NCBI GenBank assembly: GCA_964402035.1
Contig: CAYOAM010000001.1
Coordinates: 307,558 to 371,557 of the forward strand
Source of the DNA: an uncultured Candidatus Saccharibacteria bacterium
GTDB taxonomy: Bacteria; Patescibacteriota; Minisyncoccia; Phycocordibacterales; UBA918
Length of the DNA: 64,000 bases
Reading direction: 5' to 3'
The position numbers and the translations under genes were made by a program. The notes under the pieces were generated by a model, which was not told the DNA's origin, made no database searches, and saw nothing but the letters and a program-made list of their open reading frames with translations. Shown piece after piece: positions 6,648 to 22,031 of the stretch. How positions within the stretch are numbered: the first letter of the stretch is position 1; every line of letters begins with the position of its first letter.

Positions 6648-7949
6648 CTAAAATTCGTCGCGTGCTTCGTCGATCAAGTCAAGTGCTTCATCAATCAAAT
6701 CCTCTGCCTCACTTTCATCACCATCACTGATTGCATCGTCAGCATCGTCAAGGAGGTCTTGCGCTTCATCGAGCAAATCTTCAGCATTACCGACATCTTC
6801 CCCATCATCAAGTGCATCTTCCACATCATTTTCTACATCATTGAGTTCATCTTGTGCGTCTTCAAGCTGATTCTCAATATCGTCATTGTCACTACTATCA
6901 TCATCGTCATCACTATTATTCTCATTTCCTATCGCATCAAGCGCTTCATCAACGGTATCTTCTGCTTCTTCTGCAAGATCGATCGCCTCATCATAATCCT
7001 CGTCGTCAAATGCACTTTCAGCATCATCGAGTAAATCACGTGCATCATCGAGAAGGTCATTTGCCTCATCTACGTCATCACCATCATCCTCTGCTTCATC
7101 GATATCGTCCTGCGCATCATCAATCTGACCATCGACATCATCAATAAGATCATCTGCCTCACTCTCTTCAGTGTCTCCCCCTGCATCCTCAATGGCATTT
7201 TCAGCGTTCTTTTGTGCATCCTCTGCTGCATCAAGTGCATCCTCAAAATCATCACTGAAAAATGCTTTGACCGCATCGAGGAAATCATCTTTTGCATCTT
7301 CTAAGTTCTCGCGTGCAGATGCGATATCAGCTGCGTCCGTATTATCATCGACTGCATCTTCAGCGTCGTCGATAGCATCGAGTGCATCCTCGATTGCAGC
7401 GCGCGCATCTGACTCGTCAGAATCAATAGCGTCCTCGTCTTCCGTATCATGCTTTGTTACGGATGTCGCAAGAGGAATATTTTGTGTTTTGAGGGTTGTG
7501 TTTAGTTGTGCTTGTAACTGTGCGAGTTGCAACTCGAGATTTTTTTGAGCCGATGTTGCTGCTCCCTGTACTTCACCCACCCCTCCACCTGCGACAAGTT
7601 CTTCATACTTGGCACGCGATTGAGATCCAAAATAGCCTATCGCAGGAGAGAGCTTATTGGCCTGCTGCCACTTAATGACGGCAAGCTCGGTCAGTGTCTT
7701 AAACTCACCGGTCTCATGCCCTGCAGATCCAACACCACTTTCAGCAATAGTGTAGCCTGCACCATTGAGATATTGCTGCAAGCAGCGCACATCCTCTCCT
7801 TCAACACCAAATTCTAGATTTCGATTAAATGTGCAAGTGTCGGCGCGTACAGTAACCGGCGCGAGCACGATGAATAATGTACTCACAATAGCGAGCAGCA
7901 CACCAAGCGTGTGCCGCTCCGTTATACTTTTTACTGAAATATTTATCAT
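6648..7949 (-). CDS. secreted peptidoglycan-binding (PG_binding_1) protein with ~300-aa hyper-acidic D/E-rich repeat tail
   Basis: Signal-anchor then CLQQYLNGAGY...TLTELAVIKWQQANKL PG-binding domain; coiled-coil; tail ~40% Asp/Glu with 14-aa repeats (xDLLDxAxDLLDDA); likely start MINISVK at 7949 (ORF open to 7970). Confidence 0.8.
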   Translation of the reverse strand: MINISVKSITERHTLGVLLAIVSTLFIVLAPVTVRADTCTFNRNLEFGVEGEDVRCLQQYLNGAGYTIAESGVGSAGHETGEFKTLTELAVIKWQQANKLSPAIGYFGSQSRAKYEELVAGGGVGEVQGAATSAQKNLELQLAQLQAQLNTTLKTQNIPLATSVTKHDTEDEDAIDSDESDARAAIEDALDAIDDAEDAVDDNTDAADIASARENLEDAKDDFLDAVKAFFSDDFEDALDAAEDAQKNAENAIEDAGGDTEESEADDLIDDVDGQIDDAQDDIDEAEDDGDDVDEANDLLDDARDLLDDAESAFDDEDYDEAIDLAEEAEDTVDEALDAIGNENNSDDDDDSSDNDDIENQLEDAQDELNDVENDVEDALDDGEDVGNAEDLLDEAQDLLDDADDAISDGDESEAEDLIDEALDLIDEARDEF

Positions 7950-8039
7950 ATACGCACCAGTATACAGCACACAGATATATGTGCACTGTTTATTTCCTGT
8001 TGATCAGTTGCAGCGCAACGGACGCTACCTGAACCTCGT

Positions 8040-9290
8040 TTAGTTTGTCGCAATCAAGGCTACTTTTTTTCCTCGTCGAACGTGCGCTATGCCATTCTTA
8101 AAATCCGCAACTTCAATTGCTTTATGTATATCAACAACAGTTATCTCATTGACGGCAACACCCTTCTGTTCAATAAGTCGTCGGGCTTCGCCCTTCGATG
8201 TTGCTAGTCCTGTCTGCGTGAGGATATCAATCATTGTTGTGCCAATTGCGACTTTTGTTAGTGGTACTTCTTTACGTATAAACGCCACATCCTGTTTGCT
8301 CATTGTCGCAAAGTCTCCTGCTCCATAGAGTATCTCAGATACCCGTGAAGCACTCTCTGCAGATGTCACTCCGTGAATCATCGTCGTAATCTCATGTGCC
8401 AGTGCTTTTTGTCCAATACGCATGTGCGGTGCAGCTTCATGTGCCGCAAGTATTTCAGCAATGTTCTGTAGCGACAGAAAGGTAAAGATCTTCAAATACT
8501 CTGGCAGACCTTCATCTGATACGTTGAGCCAAAACTGATAGAAAGCAAATGGCGATGTGAGCTTTGGGTCAAGCCATACAGCATTTCCTTCTGACTTTCC
8601 AAATTTCTTGCCAGTTTTTTTATCCGTGATGATGGGTGTCGTGAGTGCGTACGCATTTCCCCCCTCTCTACGTCGTACGAGTTCAACGCCTGAGATAATA
8701 TTCGCCCATTGGTCCGAGCCACCTACCTGCAGATCAACGCCATACTTTTTATACAAATGCCAGAAATCGTACCCCTGCAAAAGCGAATATGAAAATTCTG
8801 TATAGGAAATAGAATCTTCCTCCGTATCGAGACGCTTCTTGATAATATCTCGCTTAATGAGCTGATTGACCGTGAAATGCTTTCCGGTATCACGAAGAAA
8901 TTCGATGAGCGATACCTTCCTAAGCCAGTCATAATTGTCATAGATTTTAAATTTCTTCTTTCCCAAGACCGATGCTAGCTGCGCCGTAATCGCTTTTTTA
9001 TTCTGTGCGACAATTTTCAAATCAAGGAGCTGTCTCTCCCCACTTTCTCGCGGATCCCCAATCATGCCAGTGCCGCCACCGACAAGAAAAACCACTGTAT
9101 GACCTGCATCAGCCAAATGCTTCATCATAAAGATAGGTACCAGATTCCCCACATGGAGTGATGCTGCTGTTGGGTCGATACCGAGATACACGGTGCGTTT
9201 TTGAGCAAGAAACTCTTGCGCTGTACCACCACCTTCATGCACGATAAATCCGCGCTCCTTAAGATCTGCTGTAATATTTTCAATCTTCAT
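8040..9290 (-). CDS. tyrS: tyrosine--tRNA ligase
   Basis: HIGH motif (HVGNLVP), KMSKS motif (KFGKS), C-terminal S4 domain; likely start MKIENITADL at 9290 (ORF extends to 9338). Confidence 0.95.
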   Translation of the reverse strand: MKIENITADLKERGFIVHEGGGTAQEFLAQKRTVYLGIDPTAASLHVGNLVPIFMMKHLADAGHTVVFLVGGGTGMIGDPRESGERQLLDLKIVAQNKKAITAQLASVLGKKKFKIYDNYDWLRKVSLIEFLRDTGKHFTVNQLIKRDIIKKRLDTEEDSISYTEFSYSLLQGYDFWHLYKKYGVDLQVGGSDQWANIISGVELVRRREGGNAYALTTPIITDKKTGKKFGKSEGNAVWLDPKLTSPFAFYQFWLNVSDEGLPEYLKIFTFLSLQNIAEILAAHEAAPHMRIGQKALAHEITTMIHGVTSAESASRVSEILYGAGDFATMSKQDVAFIRKEVPLTKVAIGTTMIDILTQTGLATSKGEARRLIEQKGVAVNEITVVDIHKAIEVADFKNGIAHVRRGKKVALIATN

Positions 9291-9363
9291 AATGTGAGGA
9301 ATTATAGAGAGATTATTGCATTGTGTCCATGAGGCCATCTACCAGTAGTGGTATTATGCACCT

Positions 9364-11424
9364 ATGAAGAAGGTCCTTATAGTGATTGCCTTCCTTGGAG
9401 TTTTGCTGCTACTCGGTAGTTATGCCCTCCATCGAGACGGGTTAGCAAAATACCAAGGCCTCGGTTCTGTTGTAACACTTGATCGCTACCTAAAACCGAT
9501 CAGCATCAAGGAAAATGCAAAAGGTCTCTATGTATTTGAGACCGAGTCCATTCCCGTAGCGTTCAAAAAACTCCTGGTACAAAAGGAGGACGCGTACTTT
9601 TACTACCATCCAGGAATAAATCCCATAAGCATGGTGCGTGCACTGACACACTATTTTTTTACAGGACGAATTGGAGGATCAAGCACGCTCACACAGCAAC
9701 TTGCAAAAAATCTCTTGGGTACTGAATCAAACAGGACCATCTACAATAAAGTAAAAGAGACTGCCTACGCGATAAGTCTCGAAATATTTCTTTCAAAAGA
9801 ATCTATTCTCTCGATGTATGCAAACACGGTTTTTTTAGGAAACCAAGTGCAGGGATTTGAAACAGGGAGCTATGCGTATTTTGATAAGCCACTCAAGGAA
9901 ACAACAACAAATGAACAACTTGCGCTACTCGCGACCCTCTCGCACCCAAGCACCAGAAATCCATGGGAAAAAGACAATGCAGTGTACGCCGAAGCTTTAC
10001 ACAAAGAGCTCGCTCCCGATACAACGTTTATACCGGCGAAAGTCACAACCGCGTATGCTTTTCAAACAAAAAGTGCGTTTGAATTGGATTCTGCAGCTAT
10101 CACATGCACATCGACCTGTACGACCACCATCGATCTAAAACTCAATGAGTTTATACGAAATGCGATCCAAAAATATACTGAAACAGAGTCTGCACGTGGT
10201 GCACGCAATGGCGCCGTCGTCGTGATTGATCCAAAAAATTCTGAACTGCTTGCGCTTGTGGGCAGCCCTGACCCAACAAGCACAAAGGACGGCAACCGGA
10301 TCAACATGGCGCTCGCGCCACGCCCTATTGGCTCTACCGTTAAACCTCTCCTCTATCTCAAGGGATTTATGGAAGGATTGCGCCCGTTTACACTTGTTGA
10401 AGATCGCGAATACAAATATCCCATAGCGACTGGTTTTTCACTGTATCCAAAAAACTATGATGGGAAATATCGCGGCACGATCACGCTCCATGAAGCACTG
10501 AGCAACAGTCTCAATGTGCCCTCAGTCAAAGTCCTTGAATATATTGGACTTGAAAAATTCTATGGCTATCTTTCAGAATCATTGCATTTCAAACCAATAC
10601 AGGATTATGACAGTTACCAGTATGGCATCGCACTCGGAGGACTTGAAATGGATCTTCTCTCACTCACCCACTATTTCACGATCTTTCCACGGTACGGTAC
10701 CCGCGCACAGCTCAAAACAATCCTCACTGCTGCAGATCAACCAACACTACCCCCACAATCACACATAGATACGACCGAGATCGTTGCAGATCCTAAATAT
10801 GTTGAACTCGTCAATGCTATTTTGAGTGATCGATTTACCGGTGTTGAGCAGTTTGGACTTGCGAGCAACTTAAACCTGACCACCAAAGAGTACGGTGTAA
10901 AGACAGGCACCTCACGCGATTTTCATGATAGCTGGGTCGTGGGGTATACACCTGATTTTGTCGTAGGTGTCTGGATTGGAAACACTGAAAATGAAGCACT
11001 GGAGCAAGTGAGTGGGCAGTCGGGTGCTGGTGTCGTGTGGCATGAAGTTATGGAGTACCTCCTCGCTTCTCCCTACCACACAGACACGACGTTTATTACC
11101 AAGGATATTGTAAGTGTACCCATTGGCAATTCAAATCAATGGGGTCTTGCCGGTGACAAAATCGCAACGATACAGAGCCTGCTTCAAAAAAATAATCTTA
11201 TCCTGAGTGTGCACGATGGCGATACATTTGAATTTACAAACGACACCACCATCCCACTGCGCGCGCGCAACCGCGTCTCGTGGACAGCAAATGGTAAGCC
11301 ACTTGGTGAAGGCGAAGAAGTGTTTTTCAAACCAACAGCCGCCGGCAACTATGAAATCACTGCTACTGATCCGCTCTTAGGCAATCGAGAGATTCTGCTT
11401 ATCAAGGTAGTTTCGCGAGACTAG
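9364..11424 (+). CDS. class A penicillin-binding protein (glycosyltransferase GT51 + transpeptidase) with PBP1C-type C-terminal beta-sandwich domain
   Basis: GT51 motifs (TLTQQLAKNL), SxxK (STVK), SNS (SNSLN), KTGT; C-terminal VSWTANGKPLGEGEEVFFKPTAAGNYEI resembles PbpC C-terminal domain. Confidence 0.9.
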   Translation: MKKVLIVIAFLGVLLLLGSYALHRDGLAKYQGLGSVVTLDRYLKPISIKENAKGLYVFETESIPVAFKKLLVQKEDAYFYYHPGINPISMVRALTHYFFTGRIGGSSTLTQQLAKNLLGTESNRTIYNKVKETAYAISLEIFLSKESILSMYANTVFLGNQVQGFETGSYAYFDKPLKETTTNEQLALLATLSHPSTRNPWEKDNAVYAEALHKELAPDTTFIPAKVTTAYAFQTKSAFELDSAAITCTSTCTTTIDLKLNEFIRNAIQKYTETESARGARNGAVVVIDPKNSELLALVGSPDPTSTKDGNRINMALAPRPIGSTVKPLLYLKGFMEGLRPFTLVEDREYKYPIATGFSLYPKNYDGKYRGTITLHEALSNSLNVPSVKVLEYIGLEKFYGYLSESLHFKPIQDYDSYQYGIALGGLEMDLLSLTHYFTIFPRYGTRAQLKTILTAADQPTLPPQSHIDTTEIVADPKYVELVNAILSDRFTGVEQFGLASNLNLTTKEYGVKTGTSRDFHDSWVVGYTPDFVVGVWIGNTENEALEQVSGQSGAGVVWHEVMEYLLASPYHTDTTFITKDIVSVPIGNSNQWGLAGDKIATIQSLLQKNNLILSVHDGDTFEFTNDTTIPLRARNRVSWTANGKPLGEGEEVFFKPTAAGNYEITATDPLLGNREILLIKVVSRD

Positions 11425-11429
11425 GCATT

Positions 11430-11458
11430 TTGACAACAGATCTCGTGTCATGTATAAG
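11430..11458 (+). promoter_or_regulatory. sigma70-like promoter (TTGACA-17-TATAAG) upstream of 11493 gene
   Basis: sequence match only. Confidence 0.35.
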
Positions 11459-11492
11459 CCTAAGAGATCAATCACCGTCATAGTGAGGACAC

Positions 11493-12017
11493 ATGCGACA
11501 GAGAGACCTTGAGAAGGACATTTTAGTCCGCTTATGGGATGAAATCCTATTCAGAAAATACGGACCAGACTTCAAGAGAAAGGACCCGACGCGCTTTGAA
11601 GATCCAGAAGCCGATACATTTCTATGGCTCCTGCGCCTGACCTTCTACAGTTTTAGTTGGGGTCAGAGAATGGCGACTGTCGACCCAAAGCTGATTGAGG
11701 GTCTGGCAATGTATGCCGGCGAACTGCACAGTGACCATCCGCAAGTTGGAGGTCCATTTGGAAATCGCTCCAACGACATTGTCTTCGGGATGTACAAGGG
11801 GTTAGTCAGCACTTTCCGACATGCCATTGAAAGTGGTACGGCAACATACCGAAAGGACGGTCATGTGTGGTTTGGAGGATTTGAAATTCCGAATTGGTTT
11901 GTCGATGAGTGCACAGACAAACTACACACAAAGGCGGATGATCTCGACAAGCTTTGGAAGGATAGTGCCCCTCGCGAAAGATACATTCAGCGTCGCAGAA
12001 AACTCAGAACTTCATAA
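11493..12017 (+). CDS. hypothetical protein
   Basis: 174-aa ORF with own promoter-like element and strong downstream terminator. Confidence 0.6.
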   Translation: MRQRDLEKDILVRLWDEILFRKYGPDFKRKDPTRFEDPEADTFLWLLRLTFYSFSWGQRMATVDPKLIEGLAMYAGELHSDHPQVGGPFGNRSNDIVFGMYKGLVSTFRHAIESGTATYRKDGHVWFGGFEIPNWFVDECTDKLHTKADDLDKLWKDSAPRERYIQRRRKLRTS

Positions 12018-12018
12018 T

Positions 12019-12049
12019 ACCTCCACACACCTGTGTGTGAGGTTTTTTT
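12019..12049 (+). terminator. rho-independent terminator
   Basis: CCTCCACACAC-CTG-TGTGTGAGG hairpin + TTTTTTT. Confidence 0.65.
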
Positions 12050-12142
12050 ACATCTCGTGTCAAAGCATGATTCTGCAACTCCTAAGTACTAACTCAAGCC
12101 TGGTTAGACAAGAGTTAGTTTATCTTTCAACTTCCTACCAAC

Positions 12143-13780
12143 TCAAAATTGTAGTGCAAGAAATCGCTTATCACGTATGGACTGCACATATCCCGCCTCA
12201 ACCGCCTTCTGTACATAGAGGTCTGATTGTTTTTTATCTCCTAGGCGATGATAGATACGAGCGAGTACCATATAATTTTCTTTTGCATCAAAATTATCAA
12301 ACTTCTTTTTAAGTTTTTCTGCATCAGCAGTGCGTCCAAGCAACATATAGGTTGCATACAGATTTTGTAGGTTGGAATCATCGACTAGTCCTTTTACTAA
12401 TTTTTGATTAACTTCAAGAGCCTTTTCTAAATCGCGTGTCTGGGCTGTGACTACATTAAGTCCGAGCAGAAACCAACCATACTGATTGAGTACAGCGTCG
12501 TTTTTTGGATCTACTTTGAGCGCAAGTTCAAAGTATTCTTTCACCTTAGCAACATTACCTAATTCCCACTCTGCATTCGCAAGCGAAAGGTACTGATCAA
12601 CACTTTTTTTCTTTGAAGCAGCTGCTGCTTTTTTATAGTACGCCGCAGCCTGTGCTGCATCGTCCAGTGCCCCGTAAGCGTCTCCAATAGAGTAACTTAG
12701 ATACGCCTTATCAGCCTTCTTTGCCTTTTTATACGCACTCAATAGCTCTTTGAGGCGCGCGGCTGGATCTTGAGTATCTAGGTCAACCTGAAGATTTAAA
12801 TCCAATGCATCGACTGCGTCTGCAAAAGATATAGTGGACTTCGGCGCAACAACCGTCATCTTGACTCCATAATCTTTAAGCGAGATGTCTGTGTACGTGA
12901 ATACAGTCTCCTTACGCTTTTCAAATGGTGGAATAACCATAACATCGACCATTCGGACCGGTAGTTTTGTAACGTTATCAAACCACAAAGAAACATAAGA
13001 ACGATCCGTTATTTTATCTACAAACTCATTATTTTTGATGCCACTTTCAAAACCTTCAATAGAAAAAACAGTGACTTCATTATCCCCTGGCATTTCGGCA
13101 ATAGTCTTCTTTAGCTCTTTAAAATAAGCTGCAAATACATCTGATCTATAAATCAGGTCATACCGTGTTGCATTCTCTACAACAATGGAATCTCCGACAT
13201 CACCGTCAAAAAACTGGAACAACCCAAGTTTTCGCGCAAGTGCTGCAGAAGCATCAAATGCTGCTATAGGGTTTGGGTCATCATTTTTTGTTAATGCAAT
13301 ATCAAATAGTTCTTCAAGCTCTAGTGCTTCAGCAAAATCGGTAGCACGTACTGCGGGGACCTCGATCCACTTATTTTTTACTGACTTGATACGCGTTTCA
13401 GGAAAGCGAATATACACTGTTTCTCCTTTTGTTATGAAGTCTAGTTTGTATTCTGTTCCTCGCTTAGAAGTACCAAGTTGCAAGGAGGTGACTACATCTG
13501 ATTCAACATACGTCGTACTTGCGTGCGTCGGCACGATATTCCCTTTCAAAGCATAATTGACATAGTACGCAGGGTACTTGTCCAGTGCACTTTTCTTATG
13601 CAATTCTAAAGCTGAACGCAAGTCGAGTGTAACGCTCGTATCCTCATCTACTGAATCAAAAAAATAAGTGTGGAGCGCATTAGGTGCCATGGAATCCAAG
13701 TCCTCATTTGCCTGCACTGTTGGAGCATTAAGGACAGCGAAAAACCCTAAAATCAGAATCGTTATTATTGTCTGTATCAT
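12143..13780 (-). CDS. secreted TPR-repeat protein
   Basis: N-terminal signal peptide (MIQTIITILILGFFAVLNAPTVQA); C-terminal ~200 aa of tetratricopeptide repeats. Confidence 0.8.
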   Translation of the reverse strand: MIQTIITILILGFFAVLNAPTVQANEDLDSMAPNALHTYFFDSVDEDTSVTLDLRSALELHKKSALDKYPAYYVNYALKGNIVPTHASTTYVESDVVTSLQLGTSKRGTEYKLDFITKGETVYIRFPETRIKSVKNKWIEVPAVRATDFAEALELEELFDIALTKNDDPNPIAAFDASAALARKLGLFQFFDGDVGDSIVVENATRYDLIYRSDVFAAYFKELKKTIAEMPGDNEVTVFSIEGFESGIKNNEFVDKITDRSYVSLWFDNVTKLPVRMVDVMVIPPFEKRKETVFTYTDISLKDYGVKMTVVAPKSTISFADAVDALDLNLQVDLDTQDPAARLKELLSAYKKAKKADKAYLSYSIGDAYGALDDAAQAAAYYKKAAAASKKKSVDQYLSLANAEWELGNVAKVKEYFELALKVDPKNDAVLNQYGWFLLGLNVVTAQTRDLEKALEVNQKLVKGLVDDSNLQNLYATYMLLGRTADAEKLKKKFDNFDAKENYMVLARIYHRLGDKKQSDLYVQKAVEAGYVQSIRDKRFLALQF

Positions 13781-13951
13781 AAATATACGAGGTAAACTAT
13801 AATAATTTTAGTGTACCACAAAAACAATCCCAGATTAATACGGCCACCTACTGATCGTGATGGCCCTCTTTTTTCTGCTTATTTCGAAAATTTGAAGTCA
13901 TGGAGTCAGTGAGAAATGGCGTCAGCCACCATTTCCTATGCGATAATATCC

Positions 13952-16900
13952 CTACTCGGTGATAGTAAACGTCGCGCCTTCGGTGCGGCCAAAGACTTCA
14001 GGGAAATAGAGCTCCTCGGCGCGAGCTGGCATGTGTTGGAAGGTACCCGGCACCAATGCTCGCAAGAAGTATTCGTATTCATAGACGCCAGGCGAGAGAG
14101 TGTCTATGTAGAGAAATACACGGTCATCGTGCGACTCCACATGCGATGGCCAAAGTTTTCGCGCAACTTTTTTGTATTCACCACCGAGATCACGAATGGC
14201 TCCAAAAATCTGCGCCGTCTGAGGACTAGTAAATGTACTTTCAATGCGATCAAAAGCACGGATGAACATGTTGTCGGGCGGCACGACATATCCCATCGCA
14301 TCGTTATCATATCCTTTTTGACCTTCACCATACTCTCCATCCTGGTTTTGCAACGACTGGTCTTCGGTATTAAGATTGAAGTTTACGATTTCAAAACCTG
14401 CAGGGATAATGTCTTCCACCGCTATATGACTATATACGCCAGGAATTGAAAGTGTGATTTTGCCACGGACAATGTCACCCACCTGTGCGCTCGACACCGG
14501 AGTACTATTTTTGGTGTTGGCCGCATCATAGGCGTATAAATCGCGTGTGATCGTGATACCCTCATCGCGCGGCGGCAGTGACTCAACCGGCAAGAAGTAC
14601 TTGAGCGCCATGTCATAGTAGAAATTGTTTTTCTGTTCATTGCGCTTGGTTCGTTCAAACGTGAGGGGCAACAATTTTTCACGCTCAAAAGAATCTATCG
14701 ATATGACGTGTGTAAAGGTTTCCCAAATATTTTTTGGTGTGAAATTGTGGACAAAAATCTCTGCGCCATCAAGCAAACCGCGCAGTGAAAATTCTGACTC
14801 ACTTTCATGTTGCCATTTGAGATAATCAACCATCGCATCGACGACAACAAAGGTGTTGTGTGTGCCGCCCCACACACCGTCTTTGTCTCTGCCGGCCAAT
14901 ATCCAACGCAAGATATTTCCTATCATTGGATGTTCGTCATCGTGCACCACCAGTGCCTTGAGCAAGAGTGCAGTGTCAGTAATCGCTGTCTGGCTCACAC
15001 CCCAACTCTCAAATTGAACTGGATTTTTTAGATACGCACCGCGACCATCGATATCAATGCGACCAAGCAGTGCCGTATATACTTTTGATACTTCACTGCG
15101 CGTGTACGAATCATAGGTAAGGATCGCAAGATATGTCAGTGATTTGCTACTAATGCGCTCTTGTATGTACGGTGTATCGGCAATAAACGTTTTTATATAT
15201 TGCGTAAGTGCAGTGTCCGTACCTCGAGCACGTCGCACGACATACTCGGCAAATATCACCGTATCCTTATGCGTATCATCGGGATACATTCGATATGCAT
15301 CTGCTGCATGCATCTCAATATACGTGAGCGCATTATCAAGGACGCCATCACGTATGGTGTAACCAGCATCCTGCAGATTGAGTAAGGTCAGAGCAACATG
15401 TGTCGTCAAGAAAAGGTCAGGCTCCATACCTTTGTAATATGCAAATCCTCCATCAAATGTCTGGACTTCATATATGCGTGATAGTCCTTGAGCGACTACC
15501 GTATCAACGTCATAGCGCACACCTTCGTATTCAATATTTTCAAAACTGCCTACTACGTTTGGAACCTTGAGCGCTGACTTGAGTGTCGCAATAGTTGAGA
15601 GCGCACTCGCAAGCTGCTCCCCACATCCATACGGATACGTGACCATGTAGTTGAGTGCATCAGTCAAAAATACTGCCATGGTGGCATTTGCATGGATGGT
15701 GAGACCTCCTTCATTTGAGATCACTTCTTTTGGAATATAGATATACTCTGTTGCTGTATCTGCACTCGTGAAGTTTGCAGTGGCGACGGTTTCAAACGTC
15801 GTATTTGGCGTAATAGATATAGACTGCTCAACACTATCTTCAAATGTGCCATCCTTTGCCGTAAAGGTAAAGATATGTTCACCTGCTTTTTTATTCTTTG
15901 GTGCACGCACATCAAAGTAGACCGTTTTTGATTCTCCTGCAGCAATTTTAACGGCATCAGTTTTGTCCCCTAAAAATTCAAGAGACGTACTGTCAAGCTG
16001 TACATCGACGGTTGTTGCATGATCAGTTTGATTGAAGACTTGTGCACCAAGTGAGAAGGTATCACCCGGCACCACAAATCGTGGCTTCAATGGCACCGCC
16101 ATTAGATCTTTCTTGGTCGTAAATTCTTTGTAGTCAACACCAAGTTTCGTGTCTTTGGTGACGCCCAAGGATTCTATTTGCCAGGTTGTGAGATTGTCAG
16201 GTAGCGTAAACTTCACCGTACCTTTTCCGTTTTCATCCGTGATCACCGAGGCTTCCCAGTATGCCGTATCCTTGAAGAGACCTCGTTTCTTTTTTGAGAG
16301 ATCATCGGGATTTGCGCCACCACCACCTTTTGTTCCAAGCGGTATCGCCACTTCATAGAGAATGTTTTTGAGGTTACTTGCTGTTGAAACCGACAGTGGA
16401 AAACCATCATAGAAAAATACCAATGGATTCTTTTTTGGATTTCCTTTGAGTGCCAAGACCGAGAGATCAGCAACAGCAAGCGACACCTCAGCAGAGACTG
16501 GATTTCCTAGATTGTCCTTTGTTTCGACAGAAAGCACCACGTCTTCTCCAGGTAGGTAGGTCGTTTTATTGGACGATACGGCGACGTCGAGTGCGTGCTC
16601 TTTGACACCGACGTCATAGCGGACACTTCCAAACTTTACCTCCGGATTTGGAGAAATAAGCAGTGCAGCAACATACATGTTGGGAGCATAGCTGCTTTTT
16701 ACCGGGAAACTGTGTTTGTATAGTCCACCAACTACGTCTGCAATCCAGTAATCATAGACGGTACCGCGCTCCGCAGTGATCAACACCTTTGCTTTCTCAT
16801 ACGGAGATTTAATCAATAGTGTCGCGGTGTCGCCAACATCCACAGAAGTTTTTTCAACTTCAAGATCAAGTTCATAACTATTGTTTGGTGGCGCCGCTAC

Positions 16901-19900
16901 CGCTTGTGACCCATAAATGTACATGTGCGCAGTCGTCTCGATGTCTCGACCTCCTGCATCTTTTCCTGAAATACGTATTTCGTACTCACCTTCCTCAGCA
17001 AAAGATAGCGACCCACTCCAATTGCCATCCTTGTCAGTCCGTATATTTTCAGAATTAATATCTTTGAAACGTTTTTCCGATCGATAGTAGAAGCCACCAT
17101 CCACTTCCTGTCGCTTGAATGTTTCCCAGTTGATTTGACGCACAGTGCGCGTGAGGTTGGATACGGCAAGCGGCGCACCCTGTGTGTCCACTGTTTTTAT
17201 GCGAAGTGTTGTTGGTGTATTTTTGCTCGTATAATAATCATCGGTTTTTGCTCCAATATAAAAATCTCCTTTATGTACAATAAATGACTTCTGCGTGGAC
17301 ACCGACCGTCCGTTGATATCCCGCACGGTTATCGAGACCGTGATGAGCTTGCTGCCGACAACATCATCGCTACTAAAATACGACATCAAATCAAGTTGCC
17401 GTTCGATTGTTGCCTTCCCCGCTTCATCAAGCGTCGTTTCACCACGAAATAGGAAATTGTCGCCATACCCACACTCATAGCAGTAGTACCATCCACCGCC
17501 AAAATTGAAATACTCGTCAGTGTAGCGATCAAAATAATAATCTTGTGCCGTGACCGAGTACGACACCTTGCCTTCTGAGAGTGCGGTACCAAAATAGTAC
17601 TCTGCCGCAACATCAATGTGCATCGTATCGCGATCGACATACTCCTCCTTGGAGGCCTTTGCATCAATAGCAAAGGCGGACGGGACATACTCCTCAACAT
17701 CAAACCAGCCGTATGCGTCGAGACCTGAAATCGTGTAGGTGCCGAGTGGTGCATCGTCGGGCAAGGTAAACGACGTGTTAAATGTACCAAATGCACTCAT
17801 AACGAGCGGCACCTGATAGACCGTTTCTCCTAGAGCATTTCTCACCTCGAGGTTTACGTTGCCTTTGTTCCATATTTCATAACTACCGTCAAAGCCAATA
17901 CGATCAATACCACGGATATAGACCGTATGTCCGGGTCGATATATTGGTCGATCGGTATAGACATAAGTGCGCGAAGCGTTGCCTGCAGCACCACTGTATT
18001 GCAATTGATCTGCCCAATCGGTCACGATAGCGCTATCAGTCCCCCGTCGCACGACCACACCTGCAACGTTTGTGTCACTTACGACACGCGCAACACCTGA
18101 CGGATCGGTAGCGCCCACTGAACCTTTGGTAAACGCTGTATTATACCCACCGGCATACTGGTCGACGCTTGCTCCGACAACAGGATTCATTGACTTACTT
18201 TCCGTCACCCAATAGAGGTTACGTGCACGTTCAATATTTTTGTCACGCACAATATTTCTCTGTGCGTACTGACTTTGATCATTGCTCTCATATCTCGGTT
18301 CATATCGTTCGATTTCTTTCTTCCCAACAACGAGGTTGGTGACACTCACATAGGTGCGATCATATTGCGGTTTGCGCAACGTTCCTGACTGCATGTATGC
18401 ATTCATCGTCAAGAGTGGATGGCTAAAGGTCACCACATAGTGACCACGCACATCGGCAAAATAGTCCGCAAGATGTATTTGAAAATAATTGTTCACCCAA
18501 TAACGCTTTGGTAGTGGAATTTGAACACTCTTATCTTCTAGACACCCAACACCACTCGGTGGTGTAGTCCCAAGGTCATTTTGCATCGCGATCAGAGTGC
18601 TTTCCAAAAATGCCTCAGGTGACATGCGGCATACGTTCATGTTGACGTACTCCATGTTCTCCGTCGCATACGTCAACGTTGTTTTATCAGGCGTCGTGAC
18701 GTTGTATTGAGGCTGCATGTTGTGGAAGCGTACATACGATTCCTTTGCTGCTTCTGTTTTAAACGACAGGTCTACTGATGCTCGTGCATCAAATACATCT
18801 GTGAGCGTTAGGTTTACCGTGTACTTAGTCTCTGGCAATAGACCGTATCGGATGTTTGTTTCAAATTCTCCGGCACCACACTTGTAGTATGGACTTGCTT
18901 CGCTCACAAACTGTGAATTCGACCAACGACCAAACACTATGTAGTCACTCGCCTTTACATACGAGGAGAGCCCCTGCTCACTCGGATCCTTAATAGGTGC
19001 ATTGGTACAGATATACATGCCATCGAGCGGCGCGCCCGACGCTCCCTGCGCTGGCAATGTCCGCAAAATATTGAACGTTGGATAGGAATGAAGTGGTACT
19101 TTGATCGGTTCTTGATTGACGCGCAGACCATCAGTCGTCATCAAGCGCTCGAGATTGAGATCAAATGAAAGATCGCGTGCGATTTTTTCAGGATCAAATG
19201 AAAAGATAAGAGTCCTGGTATCTGGCTCTTTTTCACATTCAGAGCCGAGCATGATGGTCTCATTGTTTTGATCGACTTTGCAGCGATCCGCATACGCAAC
19301 AGAACGCAGGCCCGTTGCATACATGCGCGACTGATCTTTATCTATGTTTTCAAAAAAAGTGAGCACCAATGTCCCCTGCGGATCAAGAAAATCGGGTCGT
19401 GCAAGTGATGTACGATCTGATTCTGCACGCACACCTGCAACCACACTCGGAACTGCTATACGTTGCTGCCTCACTTCAGCAAGGTTTTGATTGCCGGCAA
19501 GCGGTACCGCACCTTCGATTGAAAACTCATACGCTGTTTCAAAATCCCATACATTTTTGCGTCCATGCCGATCTGCTTTTGCGCGTACAAATACCTTGCT
19601 GCGATCCACCTCGGTCACTGATTTCTTGAGTTTGGTATCGTAGCGTGTTTGCTCACCGTACGTGACATTGACCGGGACGGTATCACCTGCTGCATTGCGA
19701 ACCATAACTGCTTCTGCAGTCTTTTCCAAATCGACCGATTGATTGAAATCGACAATGATGGGTGATCGATACCCCACAATGCCTTCTGAAACAGATACGT
19801 AGCGCAATGGTCGCGTGGTAAACGTATGTGTTGTCGGCGCGACAGCAAGCCCATCGACTGACGTCAAACCTTCCCCTATGTCGACGGTGTATGAAGACGA

Positions 19901-20620
19901 AGGGATCAAGGTCGTCTCCGGAATAAATTGCAAGTTGCGCGTGCTAATCCATTTAAAATGTCCTGGTGTCTCGGGAGTGATCGTGATCGGAATTTCTTTT
20001 AGCTCCTGCTCACTGAGAGTAGTGAGCGGCACCATTGGTCGATTGAATAGTATCGTGATCTCGGTATCTTCGTGAGATTCACCCTCGGTCGCGGGCAAGA
20101 TGGCGAGTACTTTTGGATCTTCATCAACATAAAAATCTCCGGACATTTCGAGTGCATCCGCTTTGAGATTGACCGCATAGTACGTACCAGTTTTCAGCGG
20201 ATCGGCTGGATCAAAATAGATCATCCCTTCCTCGGTATCAGTAGTCCATGTGCCCTTCACTTCAGGACTAAAGGAGATGCTTGCTTGCGCAACAGCGTCA
20301 GAGACACCGTTAGGTACCTTGACTGGTATGGTTGCGCTCTGTGATATTTTTTCCGGCACAAAAGCAAATACTGTGGAGTATTTTTTTATTGCCACCGCCT
20401 CTTGTCGCTCATGGAGCGCCAATCCCAAAATAGCTATAGCGACGAGTGCAGCAATGCTCGTCATGAGATAGGTGTGTGTATTGAAGTACGACACAAATCG
20501 TTCTTGCACAGTTGGTGTAGCAGTGTTTATCGGGACCGTAGGTATCGGCGTAGAAGAAACCACTTCATTGGGTACAATGTCCGTCGTTGGTTTTGCTACT
20601 ATCCCCTCTTTTTCCTCCAT
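13952..20620 (-). CDS. alpha-2-macroglobulin family protein, thioester-containing, membrane-anchored (2222 aa)
   Basis: YPYGCGEQ thioester motif; N-terminal TM anchor; very large multi-MG-domain architecture typical of bacterial A2M (YfhM-like). Confidence 0.9.
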   Translation of the reverse strand: MEEKEGIVAKPTTDIVPNEVVSSTPIPTVPINTATPTVQERFVSYFNTHTYLMTSIAALVAIAILGLALHERQEAVAIKKYSTVFAFVPEKISQSATIPVKVPNGVSDAVAQASISFSPEVKGTWTTDTEEGMIYFDPADPLKTGTYYAVNLKADALEMSGDFYVDEDPKVLAILPATEGESHEDTEITILFNRPMVPLTTLSEQELKEIPITITPETPGHFKWISTRNLQFIPETTLIPSSSYTVDIGEGLTSVDGLAVAPTTHTFTTRPLRYVSVSEGIVGYRSPIIVDFNQSVDLEKTAEAVMVRNAAGDTVPVNVTYGEQTRYDTKLKKSVTEVDRSKVFVRAKADRHGRKNVWDFETAYEFSIEGAVPLAGNQNLAEVRQQRIAVPSVVAGVRAESDRTSLARPDFLDPQGTLVLTFFENIDKDQSRMYATGLRSVAYADRCKVDQNNETIMLGSECEKEPDTRTLIFSFDPEKIARDLSFDLNLERLMTTDGLRVNQEPIKVPLHSYPTFNILRTLPAQGASGAPLDGMYICTNAPIKDPSEQGLSSYVKASDYIVFGRWSNSQFVSEASPYYKCGAGEFETNIRYGLLPETKYTVNLTLTDVFDARASVDLSFKTEAAKESYVRFHNMQPQYNVTTPDKTTLTYATENMEYVNMNVCRMSPEAFLESTLIAMQNDLGTTPPSGVGCLEDKSVQIPLPKRYWVNNYFQIHLADYFADVRGHYVVTFSHPLLTMNAYMQSGTLRKPQYDRTYVSVTNLVVGKKEIERYEPRYESNDQSQYAQRNIVRDKNIERARNLYWVTESKSMNPVVGASVDQYAGGYNTAFTKGSVGATDPSGVARVVSDTNVAGVVVRRGTDSAIVTDWADQLQYSGAAGNASRTYVYTDRPIYRPGHTVYIRGIDRIGFDGSYEIWNKGNVNLEVRNALGETVYQVPLVMSAFGTFNTSFTLPDDAPLGTYTISGLDAYGWFDVEEYVPSAFAIDAKASKEEYVDRDTMHIDVAAEYYFGTALSEGKVSYSVTAQDYYFDRYTDEYFNFGGGWYYCYECGYGDNFLFRGETTLDEAGKATIERQLDLMSYFSSDDVVGSKLITVSITVRDINGRSVSTQKSFIVHKGDFYIGAKTDDYYTSKNTPTTLRIKTVDTQGAPLAVSNLTRTVRQINWETFKRQEVDGGFYYRSEKRFKDINSENIRTDKDGNWSGSLSFAEEGEYEIRISGKDAGGRDIETTAHMYIYGSQAVAAPPNNSYELDLEVEKTSVDVGDTATLLIKSPYEKAKVLITAERGTVYDYWIADVVGGLYKHSFPVKSSYAPNMYVAALLISPNPEVKFGSVRYDVGVKEHALDVAVSSNKTTYLPGEDVVLSVETKDNLGNPVSAEVSLAVADLSVLALKGNPKKNPLVFFYDGFPLSVSTASNLKNILYEVAIPLGTKGGGGANPDDLSKKKRGLFKDTAYWEASVITDENGKGTVKFTLPDNLTTWQIESLGVTKDTKLGVDYKEFTTKKDLMAVPLKPRFVVPGDTFSLGAQVFNQTDHATTVDVQLDSTSLEFLGDKTDAVKIAAGESKTVYFDVRAPKNKKAGEHIFTFTAKDGTFEDSVEQSISITPNTTFETVATANFTSADTATEYIYIPKEVISNEGGLTIHANATMAVFLTDALNYMVTYPYGCGEQLASALSTIATLKSALKVPNVVGSFENIEYEGVRYDVDTVVAQGLSRIYEVQTFDGGFAYYKGMEPDLFLTTHVALTLLNLQDAGYTIRDGVLDNALTYIEMHAADAYRMYPDDTHKDTVIFAEYVVRRARGTDTALTQYIKTFIADTPYIQERISSKSLTYLAILTYDSYTRSEVSKVYTALLGRIDIDGRGAYLKNPVQFESWGVSQTAITDTALLLKALVVHDDEHPMIGNILRWILAGRDKDGVWGGTHNTFVVVDAMVDYLKWQHESESEFSLRGLLDGAEIFVHNFTPKNIWETFTHVISIDSFEREKLLPLTFERTKRNEQKNNFYYDMALKYFLPVESLPPRDEGITITRDLYAYDAANTKNSTPVSSAQVGDIVRGKITLSIPGVYSHIAVEDIIPAGFEIVNFNLNTEDQSLQNQDGEYGEGQKGYDNDAMGYVVPPDNMFIRAFDRIESTFTSPQTAQIFGAIRDLGGEYKKVARKLWPSHVESHDDRVFLYIDTLSPGVYEYEYFLRALVPGTFQHMPARAEELYFPEVFGRTEGATFTITE

Positions 20621-20673: not shown

Positions 20674-21186
20674 CTACGTCAAATAACTATCAAAATATAT
20701 GGCGTGACACGTATAGCCACCAGGATTTTTTTGTAAGTAGTCTTGATGATAGTTTTCAGCGGGCCAAAAACGAGTTAGTGGCTCAAGTGTGGTCACGACC
20801 GGATCCTGCCATCGTCCGGATTCGTTCACAATATCAATAAAGTTTTCAGCCTCTTTCTTTTCAGTATCGTCGGCATAGAAAATCGCAGATCGATACGAGG
20901 TACCACGATCATTCCCCTGCCGATTGAGTGTCGTAGGATTGTGAATCTGAAAAAAGAAATCCAGTACTTGCTTGTATGAAATAATCGCAGGGTCATAGGT
21001 CACTTCGAGAGCCTCTGCATGCCCTTGATGGTTCTCGTAGGTAGGATTGCCATTCGTACCGCCGCAATATCCTGTTTCTGTGTCGACAACGCCCTTTAGA
21101 TCACGGAAAAGATCCTCGAGTCCCCAAAAACACCCTCCTGCTAGTACCGCTTTTTTTAGGGCTGTCTCCATATCAGCATTATACAA
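20674..21186 (-). CDS. msrA: peptide methionine (S)-sulfoxide reductase
   Basis: GGCFWG active-site motif at N-terminus, conserved C-terminal region. Confidence 0.95.
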
Positions 21187-21218
21187 CGCAGTATTACAAA
21201 CACCGTTTCATGATGACA

Positions 21219-22031
21219 CTACCACGTCTCTGCAAACAGTGAATCTTCTTCAGTAGCGGTTTCACCCCAGCAGATCTCAACTGGCTCACCAATGAGGTCT
21301 GCTAGATACTGCTCCGCATCGTGTTGATCACCAATGCGATCAATAAGTCCTTTTTCCAACGCCGCAGTTCCGAGCAACGAGTATCCATCCGCGAGTTCAG
21401 CTACTTTTTCACGAGGAATCTTTCTATTCTCCGCAATAGCATCCACAAAGTTATTGTGTATGACATCAATATCGCGTTGCAAAAGTGAACGTTCTTCTTC
21501 CGTCATCAGTCGACTTGGGTCACCGATATCTTTATACCGAGCTGATGTGATAGTAGAATACTCCACCCCTTCTTTTTTGTTTTTCTCTATCTCATTTACT
21601 ATTGGCAGTATGACTCCGATACTCCCCACATCACTATTTTTAGAAGCAAATATAATGTCTGCACCGGTAGCTACCCAGTAGGCCGCAGAAAGCCCACTCG
21701 AGCGTATGAGCGCTACCGCAGGTTTATCCAATCGTTGTATTGCATGCGCAATTTCTTCGGCAGCAACAGGCTGACCGCCGTTTGAATCAATATCAAGGAT
21801 TAATCCTCGAATGGTCTCATCATCCTTAGCTTCCTGTATGGCAGTCAACACATCATCCGAAATCGTCTGTGTCGTTCCCATACTGTGAGCAGTTGTAGTA
21901 ATAAGATCTCCATAGAGCGTTATGCCTCGAACGTTGCACAAGTCAGCAGAATCTAAAAAATATACAAACAGCACTGATACTCCAAGTATACCGGCAAATC
22001 CAAACACAATACCTCCTGCAATTTTAAACAT
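21219..22031 (-). CDS. sppA: signal peptide peptidase SppA (S49 family, 36K type)
   Basis: N-terminal TM; GSIGV catalytic Ser region; ClpP/crotonase fold pattern. Confidence 0.85.
   Translation of the reverse strand: MFKIAGGIVFGFAGILGVSVLFVYFLDSADLCNVRGITLYGDLITTTAHSMGTTQTISDDVLTAIQEAKDDETIRGLILDIDSNGGQPVAAEEIAHAIQRLDKPAVALIRSSGLSAAYWVATGADIIFASKNSDVGSIGVILPIVNEIEKNKKEGVEYSTITSARYKDIGDPSRLMTEEERSLLQRDIDVIHNNFVDAIAENRKIPREKVAELADGYSLLGTAALEKGLIDRIGDQHDAEQYLADLIGEPVEICWGETATEEDSLFAETW

What the first reader, a model, noticed from the sequence alone, without database searches (positions are those of the whole stretch)
9364..20620. Thioester alpha-2-macroglobulin (2222 aa) linked to a PBP1C-like class A PBP
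In proteobacteria the A2M (yfhM) and pbpC genes form an operon thought to act in periplasmic defence and repair. Here a CGEQ-containing A2M with an N-terminal TM anchor lies 2.5 kb from a class A PBP whose C-terminal domain resembles PbpC's beta-sandwich. They are separated by a small hypothetical gene and a secreted TPR protein. The A2M is about 500 aa larger than E. coli YfhM and is membrane-anchored by a helix rather than a lipobox.
Basis: partly seen in the sequence, partly recalled or inferred. Interest (0 to 1): 0.55.

Follow-up and report, generated by a model that had tools for sequence, protein, structure and literature searches.

The report
Patescibacterial A2M–PBP1C tail-to-tail gene pair
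A giant membrane-anchored protease-trapping protein and a cell-wall synthase, known as partners in E. coli, are also kept side by side in the ultra-small CPR bacteria, but facing each other instead of forming an operon, and here two unrelated genes have been inserted between them.

Summary
The window holds a 2222-aa thioester alpha-2-macroglobulin (13952-20620, minus) and a 686-aa class A PBP (9364-11424, plus). The PBP's C-terminus passes Pfam BiPBP_C narrowly. A 174-aa orphan gene and a 545-aa TPR protein lie between them.

The genome is Patescibacteria (CPR). In 80 related loci, 63 have the PBP orthologue immediately downstream of the A2M, tail to tail. In 37 of these the 3' ends overlap or lie within 20 bp. 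No other neighbour is conserved, and the TPR and orphan genes occur in 0 of 80 loci. The link is therefore genuine and old, and the 2.5-kb spacer is a lineage-specific insertion.

The A2M keeps the ECAM-type motifs: YPYGCxEQ, HDDR, EELY and the bait/tether segment. It has a conserved TM helix instead of a lipobox. It also has about 540 extra N-terminal residues that model as a chain of beta-sandwich domains.

I read this as a new variant of the known yfhM-pbpC defence/repair pair, in a phylum thought to lack an outer membrane. The biochemical function is inferred, not shown.

The parts
9364..11424 (+). PBP1C-like bifunctional class A penicillin-binding protein, 686 aa
   Evidence: Pfam Transgly, Transpeptidase and BiPBP_C. 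Best NCBIfam model is TIGR02073 PBP_1c at 356 bits, below its 494 cut-off. hhalign against E. coli PbpC gives probability 100, E 8e-50, over the GT and TP domains. AF2 model has pLDDT 82.9 and a class A PBP fold.
9373..9429 (+). N-terminal membrane anchor of the PBP (residues 4-22)
   Evidence: Best 19-mer Kyte-Doolittle score 2.72. AF2 models a helix at residues 2-32.
9532..9984 (+). GT51 glycosyltransferase domain (residues 57-207), with EDAYFYYHPG at residue 75 and Glu132
   Evidence: E75, D76 and E132 are invariant in 61 orthologues.
10210..10989 (+). Transpeptidase domain (residues 283-542), with S324TVK, S382LN and K513TG
   Evidence: The motif residues are invariant in 61 orthologues.
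11200..11370 (+). C-terminal BiPBP_C-like beta-sandwich (Pfam hit at residues 613-669; modelled beta domain about 582-684)
   Evidence: PF06832 scores 27.8 bits against a gathering score of 26.8. 35 of 61 orthologues match. AF2 models all-beta strands from 582 to 684.
11493..12017 (+). Lineage-specific inserted gene: 174-aa hypothetical protein with no TM segment and no family match
   Evidence: No Pfam or NCBIfam hit. 0 of 80 related loci contain it. Its 90%-identity cluster holds only this sequence.
12024..12050 (+). Terminator-like hairpin plus T-run after the inserted small gene
   Evidence: This is a consensus match only.
12143..13780 (-). Lineage-specific inserted gene: 545-aa secreted or anchored protein with C-terminal TPRs
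   Evidence: TPR_8 and related hits fall only at residues 345-490. N-terminal hydrophobic segment. Only 5 homologues in 5.8 billion proteins, and two of them lie in unrelated contexts. 0 of 80 A2M loci contain it.
13952..20620 (-). Thioester alpha-2-macroglobulin, 2222 aa, of the long patescibacterial family
   Evidence: Pfam domains. phmmer to ECAM/SaA2M structures gives E 3.7e-27. 364 homologues, typically about 2150-2270 aa, several named Pacebacteria or Parcubacteria by their sources.
20414..20470 (-). Single N-terminal TM helix of the A2M (residues 51-69), preceded by a 50-residue cytoplasmic tail; no lipobox
   Evidence: The feature is conserved in 66 of 67 full-length orthologues.
18107..20398 (-). 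N-terminal extension (residues 75-838): a chain of about 8 beta-sandwich domains, against about 300 residues (MG0-NIE-MG1) in ECAM
   Evidence: Offset from the alignment. AF2 model pLDDT 84.9, all beta. Foldseek finds Ig-domain arrays and S-layer proteins; the match with the highest target TM-score among the 50 listed is 4zjg, ECAM MG0-NIE-MG1, TMt 0.54. Near-full-length matches to the module are mostly in 2000-2370-aa proteins; the shorter matches look like partial sequences.
16271..16408 (-). Bait/tether segment of the bait-region domain (residues 1405-1450), including GTKGGGG at 1429 and KKKRG at 1443
   Evidence: Aligns to ECAM 926-961. Residues 1401-1450 are the most conserved 50-residue block of the family, 0.82 against a mean of 0.61.
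15614..15637 (-). Thioester site YPYGCGEQ (residues 1662-1669)
   Evidence: Y1662, P1663, Y1664, G1665, C1666, E1668 and Q1669 are invariant in 18 homologues. GCxEQ is present in 72 of 80 loci.
13997..14560 (-). C-terminal MG domain (bMG10, residues 2021-2208), with HDDR at 2164 and EELY at 2202
   Evidence: PF17973 scores 92.3 bits. Motifs located. They correspond to ECAM RDDR 1594 and ESMY 1632, which dock the TED or the cleaved bait (PMC4498604).

Best explanation
This is the patescibacterial (CPR) version of the A2M-PBP1C envelope module known from proteobacteria as yfhM-pbpC.

Shown here: both proteins are predicted single-pass membrane proteins with their bulk outside the cytoplasm. The A2M is held by an N-terminal TM helix. 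It carries about 540 extra residues that model as a chain of beta-sandwich domains, ahead of the canonical MG ring, bait-region domain, thioester domain and C-terminal MG domain. The PBP has intact glycosyltransferase and transpeptidase motifs and a divergent BiPBP_C domain. The two genes are an evolutionarily conserved pair.

Inferred: a foreign protease, from the host bacterium, a competitor or a predator, enters the wall zone and cuts the bait segment. This frees the tether, which displaces the C-terminal MG domain from the thioester domain as in ECAM. The Cys1666-Gln1669 thioester then bonds covalently to the protease and traps it. The PBP polymerises and cross-links peptidoglycan to repair the damaged wall.

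The genes are not co-transcribed. In most relatives they sit tail to tail with touching or overlapping 3' ends. In this genome two unrelated genes have been inserted into that junction, which can take insertions without cutting either gene off from its promoter.
For: - Domain and motif content.
- Family-wide TM anchor and thioester.
- Conserved pairing: 69 of 80 species-level loci carry the orthologous PBP (40-62% identity). 63 have it directly downstream and convergent. Of these, 17 overlap by 4-26 bp, 20 have gaps of 0-20 bp and 15 have gaps of 21-200 bp. Two loci were re-checked with the ORF tool.
- Specificity: de novo clustering of 1184 ORFs from these loci finds only A2M (81 loci, counting the window) and PBP (72) conserved. 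The next family is in 15 loci.
- That next family is MltG/YceG, another peptidoglycan enzyme. It sits directly upstream of the A2M (gaps of 38-248 bp) in 13 loci.
- The junction is insertion-prone: 11 other lineages have unrelated genes there.
- The closest relatives (56-62% identity) mostly have overlapping tails. The spacer here is therefore derived.
- ECAM mechanism and the PBP1c hypothesis: PMC4498604, PMC3328433.
Against: - No experiment links A2M and PBP1C functionally in any organism. The defence/repair idea has been only a hypothesis since 2004 (PMC3328433).
- Convergent genes cannot share a transcript, so the usual reason for conserved adjacency does not apply.
- The bait/tether segment is the most conserved part of the protein. 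That fits a fixed activation mechanism, or one particular protease, better than a broad-spectrum and fast-evolving bait.
- The PBP falls below the NCBIfam PBP_1c equivalog cut-off, and its C-terminal domain is only marginally BiPBP_C.
- It may be the cell's main class A PBP rather than a dedicated repair enzyme. This was not testable from one window.
- Three loci with at least 2.5 kb of downstream sequence lack an adjacent PBP (L011, L036, L041).
Confidence: 0.7

Rival explanations
1. The A2M is a covalent adhesin or host-tagging protein rather than a protease trap. It would resemble complement C3 and insect TEPs, or the thioester adhesins of Gram-positive bacteria. The long Ig-like stalk projects the thioester domain from the epibiont surface. 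Cleavage of the conserved bait, by a cognate or host protease, fires the thioester onto the host cell surface and fixes the epibiont to it. The neighbouring PBP simply builds the wall through which the stalk passes.
For: - The TM anchor followed by about 8 beta-sandwich domains resembles adhesin, S-layer and Ig-array architectures.
- The bait/tether is highly conserved instead of variable.
- CPR bacteria are inferred to be episymbionts, and large surface proteins are implicated in host contact (PMC8080830).
- The family is widespread in the phylum.
Against: - All ECAM-type trap motifs (YPYGCxEQ, xDDR, ExxY, tether) are retained.
- This reading gives no reason for the tight and specific pairing with a PBP1C-type synthase, or with MltG in a sub-clade.
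- No adhesin-type domain beyond generic Ig folds was found.
Confidence: 0.13
2. The A2M is a physical partner or regulator of the PBP. It would be a wall-spanning sensor, functionally analogous to LpoA/LpoB for PBP1A/1B, that activates or positions PBP1C when its bait is cut or when the wall is damaged. The two proteins would form a complex through their C-terminal beta-sandwich domains. The genes would stay adjacent so that both proteins are inserted at the same membrane site.
For: - Adjacency is conserved without co-transcription across A2M divergence down to 35% identity, while all other neighbours turn over.
- An interaction between the ECAM C-terminus and PBP1c has been proposed before (PMC3328433).
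- Both proteins end in beta-sandwich domains.
Against: There is no direct evidence of an interaction, and no complex prediction was possible with these tools. The adjacency could also be maintained by joint horizontal transfer or by inheritance alone.
Confidence: 0.12
3. The proximity is coincidental. On this reading, two independent envelope genes happen to lie 2.5 kb apart on opposite strands in a compact genome.
For: In this window the genes are on opposite strands and are separated by two unrelated genes and a terminator-like hairpin.
Against: 63 of 80 related loci keep the same convergent pair. TyrRS, MsrA, S49, the TPR gene and hyp174 are each conserved in 0-2 of 80 loci.
Confidence: 0.02

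Closest known systems
E. coli YfhM (ECAM) / Salmonella SaA2M, the CxEQ class of bacterial alpha-2-macroglobulins
   Same: - Detectable sequence homology: E 3.7e-27 over residues 838-1761.
- The same order of MG2, bMG6, BRD, A2M, TED and bMG10 domains.
- YPYGCxEQ thioester pocket, xDDR and ExxY motifs in the C-terminal MG domain, and a GG..(D/E)(D/E)L.K(R)G tether.
- Anchored to the cytoplasmic membrane and next to a PBP1C-type gene.
   Different: - 2222 aa against 1653 aa, with about 540 extra N-terminal residues forming additional beta-sandwich domains.
- A TM-helix anchor with a 50-residue cytoplasmic tail instead of a lipoprotein anchor.
- The host phylum is proposed to lack an outer membrane (PMC12102498), whereas bacterial A2Ms are described as Gram-negative proteins (PMC4498604).
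- An insertion of about 60 residues with low conservation at 2101-2150 in the C-terminal MG domain.
E. coli PbpC (PBP1C) and the yfhM-pbpC operon
   Same: - A class A PBP whose best NCBIfam model is PBP_1c, and which some JGI annotations already call PbpC.
- GT and TP domains align to E. coli PbpC with probability 100.
- A BiPBP_C hit at the C-terminus.
- Genetic linkage with a thioester A2M.
   Different: - The gene order is tail to tail (convergent, often overlapping), whereas yfhM and pbpC are co-directional and abutting.
- 686 aa against 770 aa.
- Below the TIGR02073 cut-off (356 against 494 bits).
- The C-terminal domain was not aligned by hhalign and passes Pfam only narrowly.
- All transpeptidase motifs are intact and invariant.
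Large A2M-domain membrane proteins noted in the CPR predator Vampirococcus lugosii (PMC8080830)
   Same: These are CPR membrane proteins of about 1900-2400 aa with A2M domains, suggested to protect against host proteases.
   Different: That paper mentions them in one sentence. It gives no thioester or motif analysis and no link to a PBP. Homology to the present family was not tested here.

Membership tests
Bacterial thioester alpha-2-macroglobulin (ECAM/YfhM type) | CxEQ thioester motif in a TED, with the protective YPYG tyrosines | tested here: met
   YPYGCGEQ at residues 1662-1669. The residues are invariant in 18 homologues. GCxEQ is present in 72 of 80 loci. The TED Pfam hit is weak, 22.2 bits against a cut-off of 22.
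Bacterial thioester alpha-2-macroglobulin (ECAM/YfhM type) | MG-domain ring, bait-region domain, A2M domain and C-terminal MG domain | tested here: met
   PF01835, PF17962, PF07703, PF00207 and PF17973 all score above their gathering thresholds. phmmer to 5a42, 4ziq, 4rtd and 4u48.
Bacterial thioester alpha-2-macroglobulin (ECAM/YfhM type) | C-terminal MG domain motifs RDDR and ExMY, which dock the TED or the cleaved bait | tested here: met
   HDDR at 2164 and EELY at 2202. H2164, D2165, D2166 and R2167 are invariant. The ECAM positions were verified. Their role is taken from PMC4498604.
Bacterial thioester alpha-2-macroglobulin (ECAM/YfhM type) | Lipoprotein (lipobox) anchor to the inner membrane | tested here: not met
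   There is no lipobox. A TM helix lies at residues 51-69. The same holds in 66 of 67 orthologues.
Bacterial thioester alpha-2-macroglobulin (ECAM/YfhM type) | Protease-triggered thioester activation and covalent trapping | not testable with these tools
   Needs biochemistry.
PBP1C (PbpC; TIGR02073 / COG4953) | GT51 domain with catalytic glutamates | tested here: met
   PF00912 scores 133.6 bits. E75 and E132 are invariant.
PBP1C (PbpC; TIGR02073 / COG4953) | Transpeptidase domain with SxxK, SxN and KTG | tested here: met
   PF00905 scores 67.5 bits. STVK at 324, SLN at 382 and KTG at 513 are invariant.
PBP1C (PbpC; TIGR02073 / COG4953) | C-terminal BiPBP_C domain (PF06832) | tested here: met
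   27.8 bits against a gathering score of 26.8, at residues 613-669. 35 of 61 orthologues match at E<=0.01. AF2 models a beta-sandwich at 582-684. The match is marginal: the precomputed Pfam annotations of most homologues omit it, and hhalign did not extend into it.
PBP1C (PbpC; TIGR02073 / COG4953) | Score above the NCBIfam equivalog cut-off | tested here: not met
   TIGR02073 scores 356.1 bits against a cut-off of 494.2. It is nevertheless the best-scoring model.
yfhM-pbpC operon | Adjacent genes for a CxEQ A2M and a PBP1C | tested here: met
   The genes are 2.5 kb apart here. They are adjacent in 63 of 80 relatives.
yfhM-pbpC operon | Co-directional and co-transcribed (A2M upstream of pbpC) | tested here: not met
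   The genes are convergent here and in 63 of the 69 relatives that carry the pair. Only 3 relatives are co-directional with the PBP downstream. The E. coli reference is co-directional and abutting.

The most novel reading that the evidence does not exclude
The A2M and the PBP1C-type synthase form a physical damage-sensing complex in the wall zone of outer-membrane-less CPR cells. Cleavage of the unusually conserved bait/tether by an attacking protease, possibly one specific protease, both traps that protease and switches on or recruits the adjacent peptidoglycan synthase. Selection for this partnership, rather than for co-transcription, has kept the genes tail to tail across the phylum. If so, it would be the first mechanistic content for the hypothesis, dating from 2004, that A2M and PBP1C work together. 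It would also be an example of conserved gene adjacency maintained without an operon.
Probability: 0.15. Interest if true: 0.8.

Novelty: new variant of a known kind. Interest (0 to 1): 0.55.

Why it matters
The idea that bacterial A2M and PBP1C act together rests almost wholly on their being neighbours in Gram-negative genomes, where sharing an operon is a sufficient trivial explanation. This work finds the same pairing across a deeply divergent phylum that probably lacks an outer membrane. There the two genes cannot share a transcript, and every other neighbour has turned over. That is independent evolutionary evidence that the partnership itself is under selection.

The result also has three further consequences.
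- It moves bacterial A2Ms out of the 'Gram-negative periplasm' frame.
- It defines a distinct long, TM-anchored subfamily with an extended beta-sandwich stalk.
- It identifies a conserved surface system in CPR bacteria, which live attached to other cells and are exposed to those cells' proteases.

For the window itself the practical message is smaller. The TPR gene and the small gene are bystanders inserted into the junction.

Tried and rejected
- Conservation of the full A2M-TPR-PBP neighbourhood: rejected. The TPR protein has only 5 homologues. Two of them, on contigs of 152 kb and 14 kb, are not near an A2M or a PBP. Neither inserted gene occurs in any of the 80 loci.\n- Profile-profile alignment of the PBP family to E. 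coli PbpC, to demonstrate homology of the C-terminal domain: only the GT and TP domains aligned. The BiPBP_C assignment therefore rests on Pfam and the model.\n- Structure search of the PBP model: it matches only PBP1a, PBP1b and PBP2 class A structures. It was redone with 24 database homologues.\n- Flanking repeats as signs of a mobile insertion: only an 11-nt direct repeat around hyp174, and short chance-level repeats. Not convincing.\n- tRNA and Rfam scans of the window: nothing found.\n- Promoter and terminator scan: promoter-like sites are at the shuffled expectation. Only the hairpin at 12024-12050 is well placed.\n- Literature: Budd et al. 2004 could not be retrieved. One broad pbpC search was swamped by unrelated 'PBPC' papers. 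No paper in the library links A2M and PBP1C in CPR.

Full report
WHAT IS IN THE WINDOW

The ORF scan confirms four genes.
- A 686-aa protein at 9364-11424 on the + strand.
- A 174-aa protein at 11493-12017 (+).
- A 545-aa protein at 12143-13780 (-).
- A 2222-aa protein at 13952-20620 (-).

Pfam gives the large protein these hits: Big_5 (167-269), MG2 (885-965), bMG6, A2M_BRD (1251-1391), A2M (1452-1542), a borderline TED (1653-1933) and bMG10 (2021-2208). The 686-aa protein has Transgly, Transpeptidase and BiPBP_C (PF06832). The last scores 27.8 bits against a gathering score of 26.8. Its best NCBIfam model is TIGR02073 PBP_1c, at 356 bits, below the 494 cut-off. The 545-aa protein has TPRs only in residues 345-490 and an N-terminal hydrophobic segment. 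The 174-aa protein matches nothing.

The TPR gene follows the A2M on its strand, and the small gene follows the PBP on its strand. A hairpin with a T-run at 12024-12050 closes the PBP-side unit.

WHICH ORGANISM

Homologues of the A2M are named Candidatus Pacebacteria, Parcubacteria or Ryanbacteria by their sources. The 80 related genome loci are almost all Patescibacteria MAGs. G+C is about 45%. Absence of an outer membrane has been proposed for Patescibacteria (PMC12102498). Bacterial A2Ms have been described as proteins of Gram-negative bacteria (PMC4498604).

THE A2M IS AN ECAM-TYPE THIOESTER PROTEIN WITH A DIFFERENT FRONT END

- phmmer against PDB sequences aligns residues 838-1761 to E. 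coli YfhM 297-1237 in chain numbering, with E 3.7e-27. About 540 of the 569 extra residues therefore lie N-terminal to the shared core.
- The thioester pocket YPYGCGEQ (1662-1669), HDDR (2164) and EELY (2202) are present and invariant in 18 homologues of 42-61% identity.
- These motifs correspond to ECAM Y1183-P-Y1185-G-CLEQ 1187, RDDR 1594 and ESMY 1632. In ECAM the last two shield the thioester or bind the cleaved bait (PMC4498604).
- The segment aligned to the ECAM bait and tether (ECAM 926-961) is window residues about 1405-1450. It includes GTKGGGG and KKKRG.
- Residues 1401-1450 are the most conserved 50-residue block of the whole family, at 0.82 against a mean of 0.61. This argues for a fixed activation mechanism rather than a diversifying bait.
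- The only strongly hydrophobic stretch is residues 51-69, and there is no lipobox. The same is true of 66 of 67 full-length orthologues.

The N-terminal module was examined separately.
- Residues 75-840 were searched against 1.84 billion representative proteins. Near-full-length matches are mostly in proteins of 2000-2370 aa; the shorter matches look like partial sequences.
- An AlphaFold model of residues 75-880 has pLDDT 84.9 and is all beta, with about eight sandwich domains.
- Foldseek returns Ig-domain arrays and S-layer proteins. The match with the highest target TM-score among the 50 listed is the ECAM MG0-NIE-MG1 fragment 4zjg, with TMt 0.54.
- I infer a longer stalk between the membrane and the MG ring. 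Its purpose, perhaps spanning a thicker wall or an S-layer, is speculation.

THE PBP IS A PBP1C-LIKE CLASS A ENZYME WITH BOTH ACTIVE SITES INTACT

- EDAYFYYHPG (75), E132, STVK (324), SLN (382) and KTG (513) are present. They are invariant in 61 orthologues.
- hhalign against E. coli PbpC gives probability 100 over the GT and TP domains, but it stops before the C-terminal domain.
- PF06832 matches 35 of 61 orthologues at E<=0.01.
- The AlphaFold model (pLDDT 82.9, pTM 0.81) shows a TM helix at residues 2-32 and a beta domain at 582-684.
- Foldseek finds only class A PBPs.
- Some JGI annotations already name homologues PbpC.

THE LINK IS REAL, AND ITS GEOMETRY IS THE UNEXPECTED PART

I scanned one genome per GTDB species with an A2M alignment and kept 80 loci. 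tblastn of the window's proteins, followed by ORF reconstruction, gave these results.
- 69 of 80 loci carry the orthologous PBP (40-62% identity).
- 63 have it directly downstream of the A2M and convergent. Among these:
  - 17 overlap by 4-26 bp.
  - 20 have gaps of 0-20 bp.
  - 15 have gaps of 21-200 bp.
  - 11 have larger gaps.
- Three loci are co-directional with the PBP downstream, and three have the PBP upstream.
- Nine loci have no PBP hit at all, and two more (L012, L078) have only weak hits. Six of those nine have less than 2.5 kb of downstream sequence.

Two loci were checked independently with the ORF tool.
- L002: A2M 9953-16636 (+) and PBP 16620-18731 (-).
- L071: MltG 8995-9963, A2M 9965-16453 and PBP 16455-18533 (-).

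In E. coli K-12, yfhM and pbpC are co-directional and abut.

The adjacency is specific to this pair. TyrRS, MsrA, S49, the TPR gene and hyp174 recur in 2, 1, 0, 0 and 0 of the 80 loci. Unsupervised clustering of 1184 ORFs finds only two conserved families: A2M in 81 loci (counting the window) and PBP in 72. The third most frequent family is MltG/YceG, in 15 loci. In 13 of them it lies directly upstream of the A2M with gaps of 38-248 bp, and in a fourteenth (L063) 1.6 kb upstream. This is another tie to peptidoglycan metabolism.

WHY THE PAIR IS SPLIT HERE

The closest relatives (56-62% A2M identity) mostly have overlapping tails, so the 2.5-kb spacer is derived. Eleven other lineages carry unrelated small genes at the same junction. 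A tail-to-tail junction can accept insertions without separating either gene from its promoter. The inserted TPR protein belongs to a very small family (5 homologues) that sits in unrelated contexts elsewhere.

MECHANISM

Shown:
- the architecture, motifs and anchors of both proteins;
- the conserved pairing of the two genes.

Inferred from ECAM and SaA2M work (PMC4498604, PMC3328433):
- bait cleavage releases the tether;
- the C-terminal MG domain lets go of the TED;
- the thioester captures the protease;
- the PBP repairs the peptidoglycan.

In a cell without an outer membrane the compartment being defended is the wall zone itself. Likely sources of protease are host bacteria or competitors, as suggested for Vampirococcus (PMC8080830). 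It remains unexplained why two genes that cannot be co-transcribed stay adjacent. A physical complex, joint transfer or co-localised membrane insertion are all possible, and none was tested.

NOVELTY

No paper in the searchable library links A2M and PBP1C in CPR or describes the convergent layout. The system type is known. The differences are the phylum, the anchor, the N-terminal extension and the gene geometry. I rate it a new variant of a known kind, of moderate interest.

Noticed in passing
window 29539-37995 (-): A 2818-aa ORF with SpvB, FG-GAP, RHS-repeat and Ig_Rha78A_N domains and a C-terminal LysM domain. This is the architecture of a polymorphic or Tc-like toxin, here in a CPR genome.
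   Followed up: partly
window 26212-27504 (-): A 430-aa protein with a Shedu SduA C-terminal nuclease domain (PF14082, 98.9 bits). It is a candidate anti-phage defence gene.
   Followed up: no
window 20674-22031 (-): MsrA (170 aa) and an S49/SppA-like peptidase (270 aa) lie directly upstream of the A2M and co-directional with it. The MsrA-A2M gap is 53 bp, so they may be one transcription unit here. The arrangement is not conserved in relatives, at 1 of 80 and 0 of 80 loci.
   Followed up: partly
L025, L026, L034, L038, L043, L045, L052, L053, L061, L064, L065, L071, L074 (directly upstream of the A2M; also L063, 1.6 kb upstream): In one sub-clade, MltG/YceG (an endolytic transglycosylase; PF02618 at 226-265 bits for the two checked) sits directly upstream of the A2M and co-directional with it. 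The layout is MltG, then A2M, then the convergent PBP1C.
   Followed up: partly
window 11440-11450 and 12052-12062: An exact 11-nt direct repeat, ATCTCGTGTCA, brackets the inserted 174-aa gene. About one such pair is expected by chance in 2.7 kb, so this is only a weak hint of an insertion scar.
   Followed up: partly
L021, L035, L045, L047, L048, L053, L054, L062, L066, L067, L075 (between the A2M and PBP stops): The tail-to-tail junction has taken up unrelated small genes in 11 other lineages. Some look by eye like toxin-antitoxin or AbiE-type pairs (L047, L067). They were not checked for domains.
   Followed up: no
L049, L052, L053, L061, L076: These A2M orthologues show no GCxEQ in a regex scan of all three forward frames. 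The cause could be loss of the thioester, a frameshift or a variant motif. They were not aligned.
   Followed up: no
window 6648-7970 (-): A 440-aa protein with PG_binding_1 and DUF4398 domains, two genes away from the PBP. It is another wall-associated protein, and it recurs weakly in 2 of 80 loci.
   Followed up: no
window A2M residues 2101-2150 (about 14171-14320): A poorly conserved insertion (0.30 against a family mean of 0.61) lies inside the C-terminal MG domain, which is otherwise conserved. It is absent from ECAM.
   Followed up: no
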